Virus record (IMG/VR): IMGVR_UViG_2859827302_000009
Length of the DNA: 6,599 nucleotides
Strand: one strand, 5' to 3'
Source of the DNA: a virus
Taxonomy: Duplodnaviria > Heunggongvirae > Uroviricota > Caudoviricetes
Shown here: in pieces, positions 1,308 to 6,599 of the stretch
How the letters are laid out: each line of letters begins with the position of its first letter
Position numbering within the stretch: position 1 is the stretch's first letter
Notes under the pieces: generated by a model
The model's input: only the letters and a program-made list of their open reading frames with translations
Told to the model about the DNA's origin: nothing
Databases searched by the model: none
Translations under genes and position numbers: made by a program

Positions 1308-1472
1308 GTGTGTTTTATGCGGTTATACAATGAACTCAGACGTAAAGTAAATGAAGAGGATACTCCATGTCTGGAATGTGAATCACTAGAAAAAGAATTT
1401 GAGGAAATGCAGAATGATAATGATCTATCATTATTTATGAGAACATTGCGTACTAATGATACACAAATTTAT
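1308..1472 (+). pseudogene. 5' fragment of an unidentified ORF (55 codons from GTG 1308, 52 from ATG 1317), cut off exactly at the IS1 end
   Basis: ORF-track frame reads MCFMRLYNELRRKVNEEDTPCLECESLEKEFEEMQNDNDLSLFMRTLRTNDTQIY and then continues into IS1 terminal sequence. AT-rich with a weak ribosome-binding site. It occupies the position of the gene between cbpA and agp (yccE in K-12), but I cannot confirm identity from memory. Confidence 0.3.
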
Positions 1473-1487
1473 GGTAATGACTCCAAC

Positions 1488-1865
1488 TTATTGATAGTGT
1501 TTTATGTTCAGATAATGCCCGATGACCTTGTCATGCAGCTCCACCGATTTTGAGAACGACAGCGACTTCCGTCCCAGCCGTGCCAGGTGCTGCCTCAGAT
1601 TCAGGTTATGCCGCTCAATTCGCTGCGTATATCGCTTGCTGATTACGTGCAGCTTTCCCTTCAGGCGGGATTCATACAGTGGCCAGCCATCCGTCATCCA
1701 TATCACCACGTCAAAGGGTGACAGCAAGCTCATAAGACGCCCCAGCGTCGCCATAGTGCGTTCACCGAATACGTGCGCAACAACCGTCTTCCGGAGCCTG
1801 TCATACGCGTAAAACAGCCAGCGCTGGCGCGATTTAGCCCCGACGTATCCCCACTGTTCGTCCAT
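1488..1865 (-). CDS. insB: IS1 InsB frame (expressed as the InsAB' fusion by -1 frameshift); ORF shown from first Met
   Basis: Translation [44 protein letters not shown]... matches IS1 InsB. The frame continues upstream to the frameshift site. Confidence 0.85.
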
Positions 1866-1909
1866 TTCCGCGCAGACGATGACGTCACTGCCCGGCTGTA
1901 TGCGCGAGG

Positions 1910-2185
1910 TTACCGACTGCGGCCTGAGTTTTTTAAGTGACGTAAAATCGTGTTGAGGCTAACGCCCATAATGCGTGCAGTTGCCCGGCATCCAACGCCA
2001 TTCATGGCCATATCAATAATTTTCTGGTGCGTACCGGGTTGAGAAGCGGTGTAAGTGAACTGCAGTTGCCATGTTTTACGGCAGTGAGAGCAGAGATAGC
2101 GCTGATGTCCGGCAGTGCTTTTGCCGTTACGCACCACCCCGTCAGTAGCTGAACAGGAGGGACAGCTGATAGAAACAGAAGCCAC
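1910..2185 (-). CDS. insA: IS1 InsA (transposition inhibitor / N-terminal part of the InsAB' transposase), 91 aa, GTG start
   Basis: Translation [39 protein letters not shown]... is the canonical IS1 InsA with its zinc-finger CxxC...CxxC motif. The A6C -1 frameshift heptamer (reverse complement of gtttttt) lies at 1928..1934. Confidence 0.9.
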
Positions 2186-2240
2186 TGGAGCACCTCAAAA
2201 ACACCATCATACACTAAATCAGTAAGTTGGCAGCATCACC

Positions 2241-3935: not shown

Positions 3936-4007
3936 TGGAGCACCTGTGTTGTTCTGAGGTGAGCATATCACCTCTGTTCAGGTGGCCAAATTCAGTGTGC
4001 CACTTCA

Positions 4008-4184
4008 AAGCAGCCAGATTTCTGGTGCGGTTAATAAATGAGGCTGAGCTGGGTTCAGCTTGTTCCGCAGAATCTGCACATTCATGCCTGCACGTTCTGC
4101 CAGTTGCACCAGATTGTGGCGCAGTGCAAATGCACGACAGGCTTCATCAAAATATGGATGTTTGGAAACTTGGTAATCAAACAT
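4008..4184 (-). pseudogene. Phage CII-like regulatory protein (186 CII family), N-terminal 59 codons; truncated by IS911, whose terminal TGA supplies the stop
   Basis: [59 protein letters not shown] resembles the N-terminus of coliphage 186 CII as I recall it. The likely true start is ATG 4184 (the ORF track begins at TTG 4190). An agagg Shine-Dalgarno lies upstream. Confidence 0.6.
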
Positions 4185-4216
4185 GGTCAATGCCTCTGAT
4201 GTATTTCAGAATCGAA

Positions 4217-4438
4217 CTAATTAAGGTTTAGATTGCATTCTGAAAGCGCATCAACGGTCATTGCTGCTATGTTGATCATCACTTTTTCGCGTTTTTTATC
4301 TTTGCGCAGACGGTGACGGATAAGGCGTCCATCAGCCAACATGTCATTGATGGTATCGATGGATAGCCCTGTCAGCTCGCTATAGCGTTCAATAGTCACA
4401 TGAGGCGTGGTAAGAGTGATTGAAATGTTAGGTCTCAT
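4217..4438 (-). CDS. Small HTH protein in the Apl/Cox position of a P2/186-type switch (putative excisionase / lytic-promoter regulator), 73 aa
   Basis: It is the first gene of the transcript divergent from the cI-like gene and sits directly upstream of the CII-like gene. The motif [27 protein letters not shown] resembles the Cox-type HTH. ATG at 4438 is preceded by a GAGGA-like Shine-Dalgarno. Confidence 0.5.
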
Positions 4439-4563
4439 GATGCAACATTCCTCGTTTAATGATGATTAATCAGGACGAATACGGATCGTTTGTATTTTGT
4501 GAACACCATAAGCATACGATCGCACAGTGAAATCATCAAGATAAAAGTTCACTTGGAGTGACC
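4439..4563. promoter_or_regulatory. Divergent promoter/operator region of the immunity switch (between the Apl/Cox-like and CI-like genes)
   Basis: A 125-bp AT-rich gap between divergently oriented genes. Contains a perfect 10-bp palindrome TGATTAATCA (4463..4472), an ACGATCG-type palindromic core near 4516..4522, and GTGAA(C/A) motifs at 4499..4504 and 4527..4532 with an inverted copy at 4547..4553. Confidence 0.4.
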
Positions 4564-5133
4564 ATGAATTTGGAGAAAGGCGGACGAGGCGCCATAGAGC
4601 GCATGGTAGAAGCTTATGGATTCAAGACTCGACAGGCGTTGTGCGATCATTTAGGAATCTCTAAAAGTACACTCGCCACACGCTACATGCGTGACTCATT
4701 CCCAGCAGAATGGGTAATCCAGTGCGCCCTTGAAACGGGCACCTCGCTTAATTGGCTCACAACCGGACATGGTTCAAAGCAAACTTCAGGTAATACAAAT
4801 ACTATGGAAGTTGCTAAATATGTATTATCTGATGGTGCCTTGCGTGAAGACGGTTTTTATATTTTTGATAAGGGATTTCTACCCTCTACGTTTAAAAAAC
4901 CTTTTGTCATCACAGATAACAATTCTGAATTTATTTGTGATAAAGAATTTGATGACATACGTGATGGTAAATGGGTAATAAGTATTGATGGCGAAGTAAC
5001 GATCCGTGACATTACTCGTTTACCCGGTGGAAGAATCTTCGTCGAGGGTGGAAACAGAGCCTTCGACTGTAAGATAGAAGACATTGAAATAATTGGTAAA
5101 ATTATAAGTTTAACAGTTAAATATGTTAGATGA
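4564..5133 (+). CDS. Phage CI-type repressor (coliphage 186 CI family: N-terminal CI HTH domain plus C-terminal oligomerisation domain), 189 aa from ATG 4564
   Basis: ggag Shine-Dalgarno 5 nt before ATG 4564 (the ORF track starts at GTG 4558). N-terminal IERMVEAYGFKTRQALCDHLGISKSTLATRYMR...CALETGTSLNWLTTG and C-terminal ITRLPGGRIFVEGGNRAFDCKIEDIEIIG resemble 186 CI as I remember it. Length and position (divergent from apl/cII, same strand as int) fit. Confidence 0.7.
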   Translation: MNLEKGGRGAIERMVEAYGFKTRQALCDHLGISKSTLATRYMRDSFPAEWVIQCALETGTSLNWLTTGHGSKQTSGNTNTMEVAKYVLSDGALREDGFYIFDKGFLPSTFKKPFVITDNNSEFICDKEFDDIRDGKWVISIDGEVTIRDITRLPGGRIFVEGGNRAFDCKIEDIEIIGKIISLTVKYVR

Positions 5134-5148
5134 TACCGGGAGGAAACT

Positions 5149-5352
5149 ATGCTTGGTAAAGTATTTTTTGTGGTTTTATCATGCTCTTTATCATGCTCTT
5201 TGTTATTAAGCCCACTAACTACCTATGCTAAAAATTATCCTTGTTCTGGGAAAAAGGGAGGTGTCTCTCACTGTACCTCCGATGGAAAATTTGTTTGCAA
5301 TGATGGAACTATTAGTAAATCCAAAAAAATCTGTACTAAAAACTCACGATAA
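5149..5352 (+). CDS. Small secreted cysteine-rich basic peptide, 67 aa precursor (predicted Sec signal peptide, mature form about 41 aa with 4 Cys); function unknown
   Basis: Strong Shine-Dalgarno ggagg 7 to 8 nt before ATG 5149, which lies 15 bp after the cI-like stop. The N-terminus [27 protein letters not shown] has the charged, hydrophobic and A-x-A-like cleavage parts of a signal peptide. Mature part is [41 protein letters not shown] do not recognise a homolog. Confidence 0.5.
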
Positions 5353-5528
5353 CTTTTGCTTTTATATCTGCGTCTAAAATAAAAATGAGCCGCAGGTTAA
5401 CCGCAAAAGTTACATGCTCACATAGCAAAAAGAATAGCCAACTTCATTATGGCTTCAGTGAGATGTATGGTCGGGTGATGCTGCCAACTTACTGATTTAG
5501 TGTATGATGGTGTTTTTGAGGTGCTCCA

Positions 5529-5804
5529 GTGGCTTCTGTTTCTATCAGCTGTCCCTCCTGTTCAGCTACTGACGGGGTGGTGCGTAACGGCAAAAGCACT
5601 GCCGGACATCAGCGCTATCTCTGCTCTCACTGCCGTAAAACATGGCAACTGCAGTTCACTTACACCGCTTCTCAACCCGGTACGCACCAGAAAATTATTG
5701 ATATGGCCATGAATGGCGTTGGATGCCGGGCAACTGCACGCATTATGGGCGTTAGCCTCAACACGATTTTACGTCACTTAAAAAACTCAGGCCGCAGTCG
5801 GTAA
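5529..5804 (+). CDS. insA: IS1 InsA, 91 aa, GTG start
   Basis: Protein identical to the copy 1 InsA. The A6C frameshift heptamer A AAA AAC lies at 5780..5786. Confidence 0.9.
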
Positions 5805-5848
5805 CCTCGCGCATACAGCCGGGCAGTGACGTCATCGTCTGCGCGGAA

Positions 5849-6226
5849 ATGGACGAACAGTGGGGATACGTCGGGGCTAAATCGCGCCAGCGCTGGCTGT
5901 TTTACGCGTATGACAGGCTCCGGAAGACGGTTGTTGCGCACGTATTCGGTGAACGCACTATGGCGACGCTGGGGCGTCTTATGAGCTTGCTGTCACCCTT
6001 TGACGTGGTGATATGGATGACGGATGGCTGGCCACTGTATGAATCCCGCCTGAAGGGAAAGCTGCACGTAATCAGCAAGCGATATACGCAGCGAATTGAG
6101 CGGCATAACCTGAATCTGAGGCAGCACCTGGCACGGCTGGGACGGAAGTCGCTGTCGTTCTCAAAATCGGTGGAGCTGCATGACAAAGTCATCGGGCATT
6201 ATCTGAACATAAAACACTATCAATAA
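5849..6226 (+). CDS. insB: IS1 InsB frame (InsAB' transposase by -1 frameshift); ORF shown from first Met
   Basis: Protein identical to the copy 1 InsB ORF. Confidence 0.85.
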
Positions 6227-6241
6227 GTTGGAGTCATTACC

Positions 6242-6599
6242 GAAAAACAGAAGCATCCCTATCAGTAAAGAGCTTTACGAAGAGATCATGGCGCTTGATG
6301 GGTTCAATTTCTTCACAGACTGCTATTTTCAATTTTTATCCGTGATGGAAAAAACGTCTATCGTGCTCCCTCGCGGTCAACTCACACACGTTCTGCGCCA
6401 TACGTTTGCGGCGCACTTCATGATGTCGGGTGGAAACATTCTGGCCTTACAAAAAATTCTCGGACACCACGATATAAAAATGACTATGCGTTACGCACAT
6501 CTGGCACCGGATCATCTGGAAACGGCGCTCCGTTTCAATCCTCTGGCAACGCTGCCAAGTGGCGACAAAGTGGCGGCAGCGGTTGGCATTACCCCGTAA
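6242..6599 (+). pseudogene. int: Tyrosine recombinase / phage integrase (P2 Int family), C-terminal fragment of about 118 codons; 5' two-thirds missing at the IS1 junction
   Basis: LTHVLRHTFAAHFMMSGGNILALQKILGHHDIKMTMRYAHLAPDHLETALRFNPL matches the catalytic C-terminus of P2-type integrases (conserved Arg/His box and the Tyr in RYAH). The frame is open from the IS1 end and stops with TAA at 6597..6599. No integrase N-terminus is present upstream of IS1. Confidence 0.8.

What the first reader, a model, noticed from the sequence alone, without database searches (positions are those of the whole stretch)
4439..4563. Candidate operator architecture in the divergent switch region
The 125-bp gap has a perfect 10-bp palindrome TGATTAATCA (4463..4472), a second palindromic core around ACGATCG (about 4516..4522), and GTGAA(C/A) half-site-like motifs in direct and inverted orientation near the cI-like start. 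If the repressor is functional, these are the likely sites where it binds to repress the Apl/CII-side promoter and autoregulate.
Basis: seen in the sequence. Interest (0 to 1): 0.35.

Follow-up and report, generated by a model that had tools for sequence, protein, structure and literature searches.

The report
186-type phage switch in dead prophage
The 125-bp gap is the control region of a coliphage-186-like lysis/lysogeny switch inside an IS-wrecked prophage; some of the flagged motifs fall in likely repressor sites, others belong to the lytic promoter or to probable excisionase (Cox/Apl) sites, so it is an ordinary, uncharacterised member of a known switch type.

Summary
On composition alone they are not above chance: a perfect palindrome of 10 bp or more appears in 17% of shuffles.

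Comparative data show a 186-type switch with face-to-face promoters, not back-to-back ones.
- pL: TTGAAA 4420-4425 / CAACAT 4443-4448, on the + strand.
- pR: TTGATG 4539-4534 / TATGCT 4516-4511, on the - strand.

How each motif fares:
- **GTGAAC and GTTCAC.** They lie in the two best-supported CI operator candidates. O3 (4488-4504) recurs as an exact inverted 17-mer inside cI of a relative with the same CI DNA-binding domain. O1 (4547-4563) is the only match in the window to the 186 FL/FR operator type.
- **ACGATCG.** It is really a GATC that abuts the pR -10 and is invariant across the sub-family. The flanking G is not conserved.
- **GTGAAA.** Its first G sits in a hypervariable patch.
- **TGATTAATCA.** It lies between the two start sites. 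Only TGATTA is conserved, and it tracks the Cox-like protein type rather than CI. It is most likely the first of three 10-bp-phased Cox/Apl boxes.

The prophage is dead: cII is cut by IS3, int by IS1, and the pR -35 is mutated. Verdict: a new member of a known kind, of low to moderate interest.

The parts
4217..4438 (-). apl/cox-like gene (73 aa), the first gene of the lytic (pR) transcript
   Evidence: It is an ORF. It matches PHROG 575 'Cox-like excisionase and repressor' at E = 6e-31. It is 84-92% identical to the homologues in L002 and L005-L009.
4420..4425 (+). pL -35 hexamer TTGAAA (inside apl codons)
   Evidence: It aligns with the annotated 186 pL -35 TTGCGA. TTGAAA-17-CA(A/G)(C/T)AT recurs at this position in the diverse relatives.
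4443..4448 (+). pL -10 hexamer CAACAT (predicted start about 4455)
   Evidence: It is positionally homologous to the 186 pL -10 CATGAT. The stretch 4414-4503 is invariant in 53 distinct close relatives.
4463..4488 (+). Three 10-bp-phased hexamers: TGATTA 4463, GGACGA 4473, GGATCG 4483. They are candidate Cox/Apl-type boxes between the two start sites.
   Evidence: In L006/L007 the three hexamers read TGATTA / GGATGA / TGATCG. TGATTA is present in 4 of 5 clusters that encode the 73-aa Cox-like protein and in 0 of 22 clusters with the 80-aa Apl-like protein. The position matches that of the Apl sites in 186 (PMC7498355).
4488..4504 (-). It covers about +1 to +17 of pR.
   Evidence: The exact 17-mer recurs as a reverse complement inside cI (+220..+236) of L006, and as 14/17 in L007. 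Both encode the same CI N-terminal domain. Its centre is 14.5 nt downstream of the pR -10, as for the inverted-repeat operators of other clades.
4511..4516 (-). pR -10 hexamer TATGCT (TATGTT in relatives)
   Evidence: It is the top-scoring minus-strand promoter here, at the position homologous to the annotated 186 pR.
4518..4521 (.). GATC (Dam site) one base upstream of the pR -10.
   Evidence: GATC-N-TAnnnT was flagged in 28 of the 29 TTGACG-type clusters and is present in the 29th (L007) by eye. It is absent from the true 186-type clusters. The flanking G4522 is A in L006/L007.
4516..4536 (.). O2, an inferred central operator: ACGAT-N11-ATCGT in relatives (ATCAT in this window). It is centred at 4526 in the pR spacer.
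   Evidence: It sits at the same place as the central 186 operator, in the spacer. The arms are conserved in L003, L006 and L007 and the centre is variable. It shares its centre with the GTGAAC/GTTCAC pair.
4522..4527 (.).
   Evidence: It shows 13 haplotypes among 53 distinct close relatives, against a median of 2 and a maximum of 6 elsewhere. Position 4526 is A43/G6/C1/T3 and 4527 is G39/A12/T2.
4534..4539 (-). pR -35 hexamer TTGATG (TTGACG in nearly all relatives; G-to-A change at 4535 in this window)
4547..4563 (.).
   Evidence: It is the only match (1 mismatch or fewer) to TTCAC-N5-GTGAA in the 6.6-kb window, where 0.29 are expected, or about 0.006 in 125 bp. The 186 FL and FR sites read ATTCACATWAAGTGAAK. 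It is conserved in L006 and L007.
4564..5133 (+). cI repressor gene (189 aa, intact)
   Evidence: It has Pfam Phage_CI_repr and Phage_CI_C. It is 31% identical to 186 CI and matches PDB 2FJR and 2FKD.
4784..4800 (+). Degenerate FL-equivalent inside the cI linker codons: CTTCAGGTAATACAAAT (12/17 to the reverse complement of O3)
   Evidence: It occupies the position of the perfect 17-mer in L006.
4005..4190 (-). cII, truncated after 61 codons by IS3 (homology with intact prophages stops at 4008)

Best explanation
The gap 4439-4563 is the control region of a coliphage-186-type lysis/lysogeny switch that belongs to a heteroimmune, uncharacterised immunity group.

**Promoters (inferred).** The lysogenic promoter pL fires rightwards from about 4455, through the whole gap, into cI. 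Its -35 lies inside apl and its -10 is at 4443-4448. The lytic promoter pR fires leftwards from about 4504 into apl-cII. Its -35 is at 4539-4534 and its -10 at 4516-4511. The two promoters therefore face each other.

**CI sites (inferred).** CI most likely binds a set of sites over and around pR:
- O3 at 4488-4504, over the pR start, which contains GTGAAC;
- O2, centred at 4526 in the pR spacer, with arms ACGAT and ATCGT;
- O1 at 4547-4563, upstream of the -35, which is a TTCAC-N5-GTGAC site like 186 FL/FR.
Binding would occlude pR. By analogy with 186, relief of convergent transcription would then favour pL.

**Cox/Apl boxes (inferred).** The stretch between the two start sites (about 4453-4488) most likely carries direct-repeat boxes for the Cox/Apl-like protein. 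TGATTA is the best conserved of them. The 10-bp palindrome would then be a by-product of box 1 and its flank.

**ACGATCG.** Its conserved element is a GATC fixed against the pR -10, a promoter-level feature of the whole sub-family.

**Shown versus inferred.**
- Shown: gene identities, positional homology of the promoters, the conservation patterns, the 17-mer duplication in L006 and the uniqueness of the B-type match.
- Inferred: which protein binds where, and all regulatory consequences.

**State of this copy.** The switch is a relic. cII is truncated by IS3, int is cut by IS1, and the pR -35 has a down mutation. At most CI expression and immunity could survive.
For: **Family.** CI has both 186-CI domains and matches the 186 CI structures. 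The neighbours are a Cox-like protein and a CII-like protein.

**Promoters.**
- Window pL aligns base for base with the annotated 186 pL.
- TTGAAA-17-CAnnAT on the + strand and TTGAC(G/A)-17-TAnnnT on the - strand recur at the same places across the diverse clusters.

**Constraint.** The gap is 88-89% identical to L006/L007, whereas third codon positions in apl and cI are 43-55% identical. The stretch 4414-4503 is invariant in 53 distinct relatives.

**O3.**
- Its 17-mer is duplicated exactly, in inverted orientation, in the cI linker of L006, where about 3e-5 such matches are expected. L007 has 14/17 at the same place. Both share the window's CI N-terminal domain.
- 186 has its FL operator inside cI as well.
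- The centre of O3 sits 14.5 nt from the pR -10, as do the inverted-repeat operators of other clades.

**O1.** It is the single window-wide match to the 186 FL/FR pattern.

**O2.** It lies in the spacer like the central 186 operator. Its arms are conserved and its centre is variable.

**Cox boxes.**
- TGATTA occurs in 4 of 5 Cox575-type clusters and in 0 of 22 Apl80-type clusters. The Apl80-type clusters carry CGTTTTA direct repeats at the same place instead.
- L006/L007 show TGATTA / GGATGA / TGATCG at exact 10-bp phasing.
- RDF sites in 186 are 6-bp direct repeats one helical turn apart, located between pR and pL (PMC7498355).
Against: - No binding data exist for this immunity group.
- O3 has only weak internal dyad symmetry (4 of 8 pairs). 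The window's own FL-equivalent is degenerate (12/17), and no FR-like site was found.
- The candidate operator centres are 29-30 bp apart, not the two helical turns reported for the three 186 pR operators (PMC3675496).
- A family-wide k-mer test for FL-type duplications was only marginal: mean longest match 8.3 versus 7.8 in the control window.
- The Cox-box consensus is loose. A search of the att-proximal DNA in L003 gave only AGATTA- and GGTTAA-like matches.
- The conserved GATC could itself be part of a CI half-site, since most clades have GTGATC.
- Palindromes in the gap are not enriched over shuffles.
Confidence: 0.6

Rival explanations
1. All the motifs, including the palindrome TGATTAATCA, are CI operators. 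CI would bind a regular array of dyads across the gap, centred at 4467.5, 4496, 4526 and 4555, and would repress both promoters by wrapping, as the weak pL-side sites do in 186.
For: - TGATTAATCAGG is fully conserved in L006 and L007, which share the CI N-terminal domain.
- L006 carries a second copy, the 12-bp perfect palindrome CTGATTAATCAG, inside cII about 520 bp away. This is reminiscent of a distal FR-type site.
- The symmetry centres are spaced regularly, at 28.5-30 bp (and sequence).
- 186 CI footprints extend over pL through poorly defined weak sites (PMC3675496).
Against: - The right half of the palindrome is not conserved in L005, L008 or L009, and TGATTA follows the Cox-like protein type rather than CI relatedness.
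- The half-site orientation and spacing (TGATT|AATCA, 5 bp centre to centre) do not fit the TTCAC-N5-GTGAA geometry.
- The L006 cII copy is absent from L007 and degenerate in L003.
- A 10-bp palindrome occurs in 17% of shuffles.
Confidence: 0.2
2. The ACGATCG element works through Dam methylation rather than as an operator. A GATC held against the pR -10 would make lytic-promoter activity, or repressor/SeqA binding, sensitive to the methylation state. The phage-encoded Dam, made from the same operon, would feed back on it.
For: - GATC-N-(-10) is invariant in all 29 TTGACG-type clusters (28 flagged, L007 by eye). Both flanks and all operators vary, and the true 186-type clusters lack it.
- The three sub-family genomes examined carry a DNA adenine methylase gene in the pR operon: L003, 813R9 and ST11-VIM1phi8.4. 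Phage 186 has none.
Against: - The correlation rests on 3 genomes against 1.
- Most clades read GTGATC, so the GATC may be retained as part of a GTGAT/GTGAA-type CI half-site.
- No published evidence was found.
- The idea is not exclusive of the main model.
Confidence: 0.25
3. The motifs are chance features of an AT-rich relic and have no present function in this strain. The prophage is dead and the region is decaying.
For: - Shuffles reproduce such palindromes.
- cII is truncated by IS3, int is cut by IS1 and the pR -35 is mutated.
Against: - The gap is far more conserved than synonymous sites across genera.
- cI is intact and identical to copies on other contigs.
- pL and the candidate operators are unchanged, apart from 4512 and 4535.
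Confidence: 0.1
4. The inverted repeats act at the RNA level, in the 109-nt cI leader. For example, the TCACU-UGG-AGUGA hairpin would mask the cI ribosome-binding site.
For: The minimum-free-energy fold pairs 4484-4521 and places the ribosome-binding-site region in a hairpin.
Against: The fold energies are not better than shuffles: z = -1.09 for the pL leader and +0.85 for the pR 5' end. There is no Rfam match.
Confidence: 0.05

Closest known systems
Coliphage 186 CI / Apl / CII switch (pR-pL, FL, FR)
   Same: - The CI has two domains of the same Pfam families and hits the 186 CI structures.
- The gene order is cII-apl / cI-(orf)-int.
- pL aligns with 186 pL, with its -35 inside apl.
- pR lies next to the cI start, so the promoters face each other.
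- A TTCAC-N5-GTGAC site resembles 186 FL/FR.
- There is an operator-like duplicate inside cI (perfect in relative L006).
- The CII half-sites ATGTTTG-N13-CAAACAT lie upstream of the apl-cII junction.
   Different: - CI is only 31% identical to 186 CI, and the Apl counterpart is a different 73-aa Cox-like family (PHROG 575).
- pR is TTGACG-type with an invariant GATC next to the -10. The 186-type pR is TTTACT with the operator filling the spacer.
- The best-supported operator lies downstream of the -10.
- The candidate sites are about 29-30 bp apart rather than about 21 bp.
- No FR was found.
- This copy is an IS-disrupted remnant.
P2 Pe-Pc switch with Cox boxes
   Same: The lytic and lysogenic promoters face each other. 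The first lytic gene encodes a small protein that is both excisionase and repressor, and its direct-repeat sites lie between or over the promoters (PMC7498355, PMC1904263).
   Different: The repressor here is 186-CI type, not the small P2 C protein that binds direct repeats. The box sequence differs: TGATTA-like here, against the P2 TTAAAGNCA, which I recall from memory.
Lambda OR (PR/PRM)
   Same: A CI repressor and a lytic regulator are encoded divergently, and operators overlap the lytic promoter.
   Different: Lambda promoters are back to back, and CI and Cro share the operators. Here the promoters converge and the two regulators appear to have separate sites.

Membership tests
186-type CI/Apl lysis-lysogeny switch | Repressor with the 186-CI N-terminal HTH domain and the C-terminal oligomerisation domain | tested here: met
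   Pfam PF07022 at 2.7e-33 and PF16452 at 2.7e-29. PDB 2FJR at 8e-31 and 2FKD at 6e-14.
186-type CI/Apl lysis-lysogeny switch | Divergent cI versus apl-cII genes, with int downstream of cI | tested here: met
   The neighbours match PHROG Cox-like and CII-like families. The intact relative L003 has cII-cox / cI-orf-int.
186-type CI/Apl lysis-lysogeny switch | Face-to-face pR and pL with overlapping transcripts | tested here: met
   This is sequence-level evidence only. The hexamers are homologous to the annotated 186 pR and pL and are conserved across about 50 clusters. The predicted overlap is about 4455-4504. The start sites have not been mapped.
186-type CI/Apl lysis-lysogeny switch | Three CI operators over pR, spaced two helical turns apart | tested here: inconclusive
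   There are three candidate sites, centred at 4496, 4526 and 4555, but they are 29-30 bp apart. Only O3 and O1 have independent support.
186-type CI/Apl lysis-lysogeny switch | Distal flanking operators (FL in cI, FR near apl-cII) about 300 bp away | tested here: inconclusive
   The FL-type duplicate is perfect in L006, 14/17 in L007 and only 12/17 in this window at 4784-4800. No FR candidate was found.
186-type CI/Apl lysis-lysogeny switch | Helically phased direct-repeat sites for the excisionase/repressor, between the start sites and at att | tested here: inconclusive
   There are three 10-bp-phased hexamers, and TGATTA tracks the Cox-like type. The att side is absent from the window and gave only weak matches in L003.
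186-type CI/Apl lysis-lysogeny switch | A CII-activated establishment promoter with inverted CII half-sites at the cII start | tested here: met
   ATGTTTG at 4158-4164 and CAAACAT at 4178-4184 have the same sequence and N13 spacing as the annotated 186 CII site. This is sequence-level evidence only.
186-type CI/Apl lysis-lysogeny switch | CI binding to and repression of pR; CI 14-mer wheel | not testable with these tools
   This needs EMSA or footprinting, reporters and SEC-MALS.
Lambda-type back-to-back switch with shared CI/Cro operators | Divergent (back-to-back) promoters within the intergenic gap | tested here: not met
   The pL -35 lies inside apl and pR points towards apl from the cI side. 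The built-in consensus scan found no promoter-like site at all in 4150-4700.
P2-type C repressor switch | A small C repressor that binds two direct repeats over Pe | tested here: not met
   The repressor is a 189-aa 186-CI-type protein.

The most novel reading that the evidence does not exclude
In the TTGACG-pR sub-family to which this switch belongs, the lytic promoter may be wired to DNA methylation. A Dam site is held immovably one base from the -10, and the operon it drives encodes a Dam methylase. Next to that site lies a two-base hotspot that has mutated repeatedly among otherwise identical switches, which may tune promoter strength or repressor affinity. This would be an epigenetic input and a rapidly evolving 'dial' on a 186-type switch. 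Neither has been described.
Probability: 0.2. Interest if true: 0.6.

Novelty: new member of a known kind. Interest (0 to 1): 0.27.

Why it matters
This prophage family is common. About 590 of 5426 complete E. coli genomes carry most of this cI-apl-cII module, yet its immunity group has no mapped operators.

A concrete site map (O1, O2, O3, the Cox boxes, pR and pL) makes footprinting and reporter tests straightforward. It would also show how 186-type repressors change specificity while keeping an almost identical recognition helix.

In this particular strain the element is a dead remnant. The practical question is only whether the orphan CI still confers superinfection immunity.

Tried and rejected
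1. **Built-in promoter/terminator scan of 4150-4700.** It found nothing. The promoters score only 8/12 here and were identified by homology instead.
2. **Shuffle tests for palindromes and inverted repeats.** Neither was enriched, so the motifs cannot be argued from statistics alone.
3. **ACGATCCGT inside cI (4999-5007).** This is the reverse complement of 4481-4489, and with it comes an ACGAT-N11-CTCGT match. I considered it as an FL-type site. I rejected it because L006 and L007 have no counterpart and a comparable hit occurs in cbpA.
4. **Inverted repeat TTTCAGAAT / ATTCTGAAA at 4205 and 4238.** I considered it as an FR candidate, but it is not conserved in L006 or L007.
5. **Family-wide k-mer test for FL duplicates.** It was marginal. 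Only the positional clustering at cI +220..+239 and the L006 17-mer remain.
6. **Cox boxes at the att side of intact prophage L003.** Only loose matches turned up.
7. **RNA-structure explanation.** The z-scores are not significant, and there are no Rfam hits.
8. **Host transcription-factor sites for TGATTAATCA.** I compared it by eye, from memory, with the Fur, IHF, Fis, ArcA, CRP and LexA consensus sequences. None matched convincingly, and no tool test was run.
9. **Literature on Dam control of P2/186-like lytic promoters.** Nothing relevant was found.
10. **Source strain.** The IS3/cII junction at 4008 is absent from all complete E. coli genomes searched. The source is probably a Shigella-like, IS-rich genome, but it was not identified.

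Full report
**Context.** The window is an IS-rich chromosomal stretch.
- cbpA lies at 1-921.
- Two identical IS1 copies sit in inverted orientation at 1468-2240 and 5474-6246.
- An IS3-family element runs up to about 4007.
- Between them is a fragment of a P2/186-like (Peduoviridae) prophage. It holds cII truncated to 61 codons (4005-4190, - strand), a 73-aa apl/cox-like gene (4217-4438, - strand), an intact 189-aa cI (4564-5133, + strand), a small ORF (5149-5352) and, beyond the second IS1, the C-terminal third of int.
- Homology with intact E. coli prophages begins at 4008. The IS3 junction is found in none of 5426 complete E. coli genomes.

CI has both Pfam domains of the 186 repressor. It is 31% identical to 186 CI and hits the 186 CI structures 2FJR and 2FKD. 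The small divergent gene belongs to PHROG 575, 'Cox-like excisionase and repressor'.

**Observation.** Every motif is at the stated coordinates. On composition alone they are unremarkable.
- 16.8% of dinucleotide shuffles of the 125 bp contain a perfect palindrome of 10 bp or more.
- Short inverted repeats are not enriched.

Any case for function has to come from comparison.

**The region as a whole is functional.** Two relatives from other genera, L006 (Enterobacter) and L007 (Klebsiella), encode a CI whose first 60 residues are essentially identical to the window's. Their linkers and C-terminal domains differ.
- Against them, third codon positions of apl and of cI codons 1-60 are only 43-55% identical.
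- The 125-bp gap is 88-89% identical.
- Among 53 distinct close relatives, 4414-4503 is completely invariant.

**Promoters.** The 186 GenBank record annotates pR next to the cI start and pL with its -35 inside apl. The two are face to face. PMC7498355 and PMC3675496 describe the same arrangement.
- Window 4420-4448 aligns base for base with 186 pL: TTGAAA-17-CAACAT against TTGCGA-17-CATGAT.
- On the minus strand, TTGAC(G/A)-17-TAnnnT is the top-scoring promoter at the homologous place in almost all diverse relatives.
- The window reads TTGATG-17-TATGCT (4539-4534 and 4516-4511). It carries a G-to-A change at 4535 that is present in only 2 of 53 relatives.
- The predicted starts are about 4455 for pL and about 4504 for pR, so the transcripts converge and overlap by about 50 bp.

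The genes are divergent, but the switch is not a back-to-back one.

**CI operator candidates.**

- In L006 this exact 17-mer recurs as a reverse complement inside cI at +220..+236, in the variable linker codons. About 3e-5 such matches are expected by chance.
- L007 has 14/17 at the same place. The window has only 12/17, at 4784-4800.
- This mirrors the 186 FL operator, which also lies inside cI.
- The centre of O3 is 14.5 nt downstream of the pR -10. The clear inverted-repeat operators of other clades have the same offset, for example ATTCCC-N5-GGGAAT, TCAAT-N-ATTGA and GTACCCAATTGGGTAC.

- The 186 FL and FR sites read ATTCACATTAAGTGAAG and ATTCACATAAAGTGAAT.
- The pattern TTCAC-N5-GTGAA, allowing one mismatch, occurs once in the whole window, at this spot. 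The expectation is 0.29 per window, or about 0.006 for the gap.
- O1 lies just upstream of the pR -35 and overlaps the cI ribosome-binding site. This is the position of the cI-proximal operator in 186.

*O2 (centre 4526).* In the relatives the pR spacer holds ACGATCGCA-CAG-TGAAATCGT.
- The arms are conserved and the centre is variable.
- It is placed like the central 186 operator.
- It shares its centre with the GTGAAC/GTTCAC pair.
- The window's 4535 mutation damages its right arm as well as the -35.
- O2 is inferred only.

The three centres are 29-30 bp apart, unlike the two-turn spacing reported for 186 (PMC3675496). No FR-like site was found. A family-wide test for FL-type duplicates was only marginal.

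**ACGATCG.** I clustered 178 distinct switch regions from about 270 loci into 53 clusters, which fall into two sub-families.
- True 186-type switches have TTTAC(T/A)-17-TATATT, with the operator filling the spacer and no GATC.
- The window's sub-family has TTGACG-type pR promoters. A GATC sits exactly one base upstream of the -10 in all 29 clusters (28 flagged, L007 by eye), whatever the flanking bases or operators.

The last G of ACGATCG is A in L006 and L007. The conserved unit is therefore GATC, not the palindrome CGATCG. It may be a Dam-dependent promoter feature, or part of a GTGAT-type half-site, since most clades read GTGATC. The three genomes of this sub-family that I inspected carry a DNA adenine methylase gene in the pR operon, and 186 does not.

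**GTGAAA.** Its first G (4527) and the preceding base form a mutational hotspot.
- There are 13 haplotypes at 4522-4527 among 53 relatives, against a median of 2 elsewhere.
- Three or four alleles occur at single positions.

It is not a conserved half-site.

**TGATTAATCA.** It lies at +8..+18 of pL and +32..+41 of pR. That is the stretch where 186 has its seven Apl sites and where P2-like phages place their Cox sites (PMC7498355).
- Only TGATTA is conserved beyond the closest clade: L008 has TGATTAGAAG, L005 TGATTAGTAG and L009 TGATTACAAG.
- The Cox-like proteins of these phages are 84-92% identical, while their CI N-terminal domains and pR operators differ.
- TGATTA occurs in the inter-start zone in 4 of 5 clusters with the 73-aa Cox-like protein, and in 0 of 22 with the 80-aa Apl-like protein.
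- The 80-aa type clusters instead have conserved CGTTTTA direct repeats 10-11 bp apart at the same place.
- In L006 and L007 the hexamers at 4463, 4473 and 4483 read TGATTA, GGATGA and TGATCG. The window has TGATTA, GGACGA and GGATCG.

The best reading is three 10-bp-phased Cox/Apl-type boxes, with the palindrome incidental. A CI role is not excluded. The 12-bp sequence is conserved in the same-CI group, and L006 has a second perfect copy inside cII.

**Other explanations.** RNA folding of the cI leader and of the pR 5' end is no better than shuffles. Rfam finds nothing.

**Verdict.** This is a heteroimmune, uncharacterised member of the known 186-type switch, sitting in a dead prophage.
GTGAAC and GTTCAC are plausible CI contacts.
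- It is wrong about the promoter geometry.
- It is probably wrong about the palindrome, and about ACGATCG and GTGAAA as operator cores.

Two side observations are the most interesting by-products and were only partly followed up: the invariant GATC next to the pR -10, together with phage dam, and the hypervariable dinucleotide in the spacer.

Noticed in passing
window 4518-4521; loci L002, L004-L022, L103-L171: A GATC sits exactly one base upstream of the pR -10 in all 29 clusters of the TTGACG-pR sub-family (28 flagged, L007 by eye) and is absent from true 186-type switches. Three inspected genomes of the sub-family carry a DNA adenine methylase gene in the pR operon, and 186 has none.
   Followed up: partly
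window 4522-4527: This is a hypervariable patch in the pR spacer. It has 13 haplotypes among 53 otherwise near-identical switch regions, and positions 4526 and 4527 show 4 and 3 alleles. The neighbouring 90 bp are invariant. The cause is unexplained: diversifying selection or a mutational hotspot.
   Followed up: partly
window 4535 and 4512: Two changes are specific to this window. G-to-A at 4535 turns the pR -35 TTGACG into TTGATG and breaks the ATCGT arm of O2. A-to-G at 4512 lies in the -10. Only L024 shares the exact switch sequence.
   Followed up: partly
L006 cI +220..+236 and L006 -627..-614 (inside cII): L006 carries an exact inverted copy of the 17-bp O3 sequence in its cI linker. It also has a 12-bp perfect palindrome, CTGATTAATCAG, inside cII. 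L003 has the degenerate CCTCATTAATCGGT at the homologous place.
   Followed up: partly
window 4158-4164 and 4178-4184: ATGTTTG-N13-CAAACAT has the same half-sites and spacing as the annotated CII binding site of the 186 pE promoter. It is retained here even though cII itself is truncated by IS3 at 4008.
   Followed up: no
window 4999-5019: ACGATCCGT inside cI is the exact reverse complement of 4481-4489, and ACGATCCGTGACATTACTCGT matches ACGAT-N11-ATCGT with one mismatch. It has no counterpart in L006 or L007, so it is probably a coincidence.
   Followed up: yes
window 1468-2240 and 5474-6246: Two 773-bp, 100% identical IS1 copies lie in inverted orientation around the IS3 element and the prophage remnant. 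The second copy replaces the 5' two-thirds of int. The arrangement could invert or delete the enclosed 3.2 kb.
   Followed up: no
window 5149-5352: A small ORF of 67 aa lies between cI and int. It has an N-terminal hydrophobic stretch and is cysteine-rich. It matches PHROG 6000 (unknown function) and is annotated as a YdcA family protein in some E. coli genomes. It is likely a lysogeny-expressed accessory gene on the pL transcript.
   Followed up: no
L010-L022, L103-L171, inter-start zone: Relatives that encode the 80-aa 186-like Apl share a highly conserved array, CTCTTAGTTTGGTTTCGTTTTATCTCGTTTTAT, with CGTTTTA repeats 10-11 bp apart. The adjacent operators vary freely. This gives a clean candidate Apl-box consensus for that group.
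   Followed up: no
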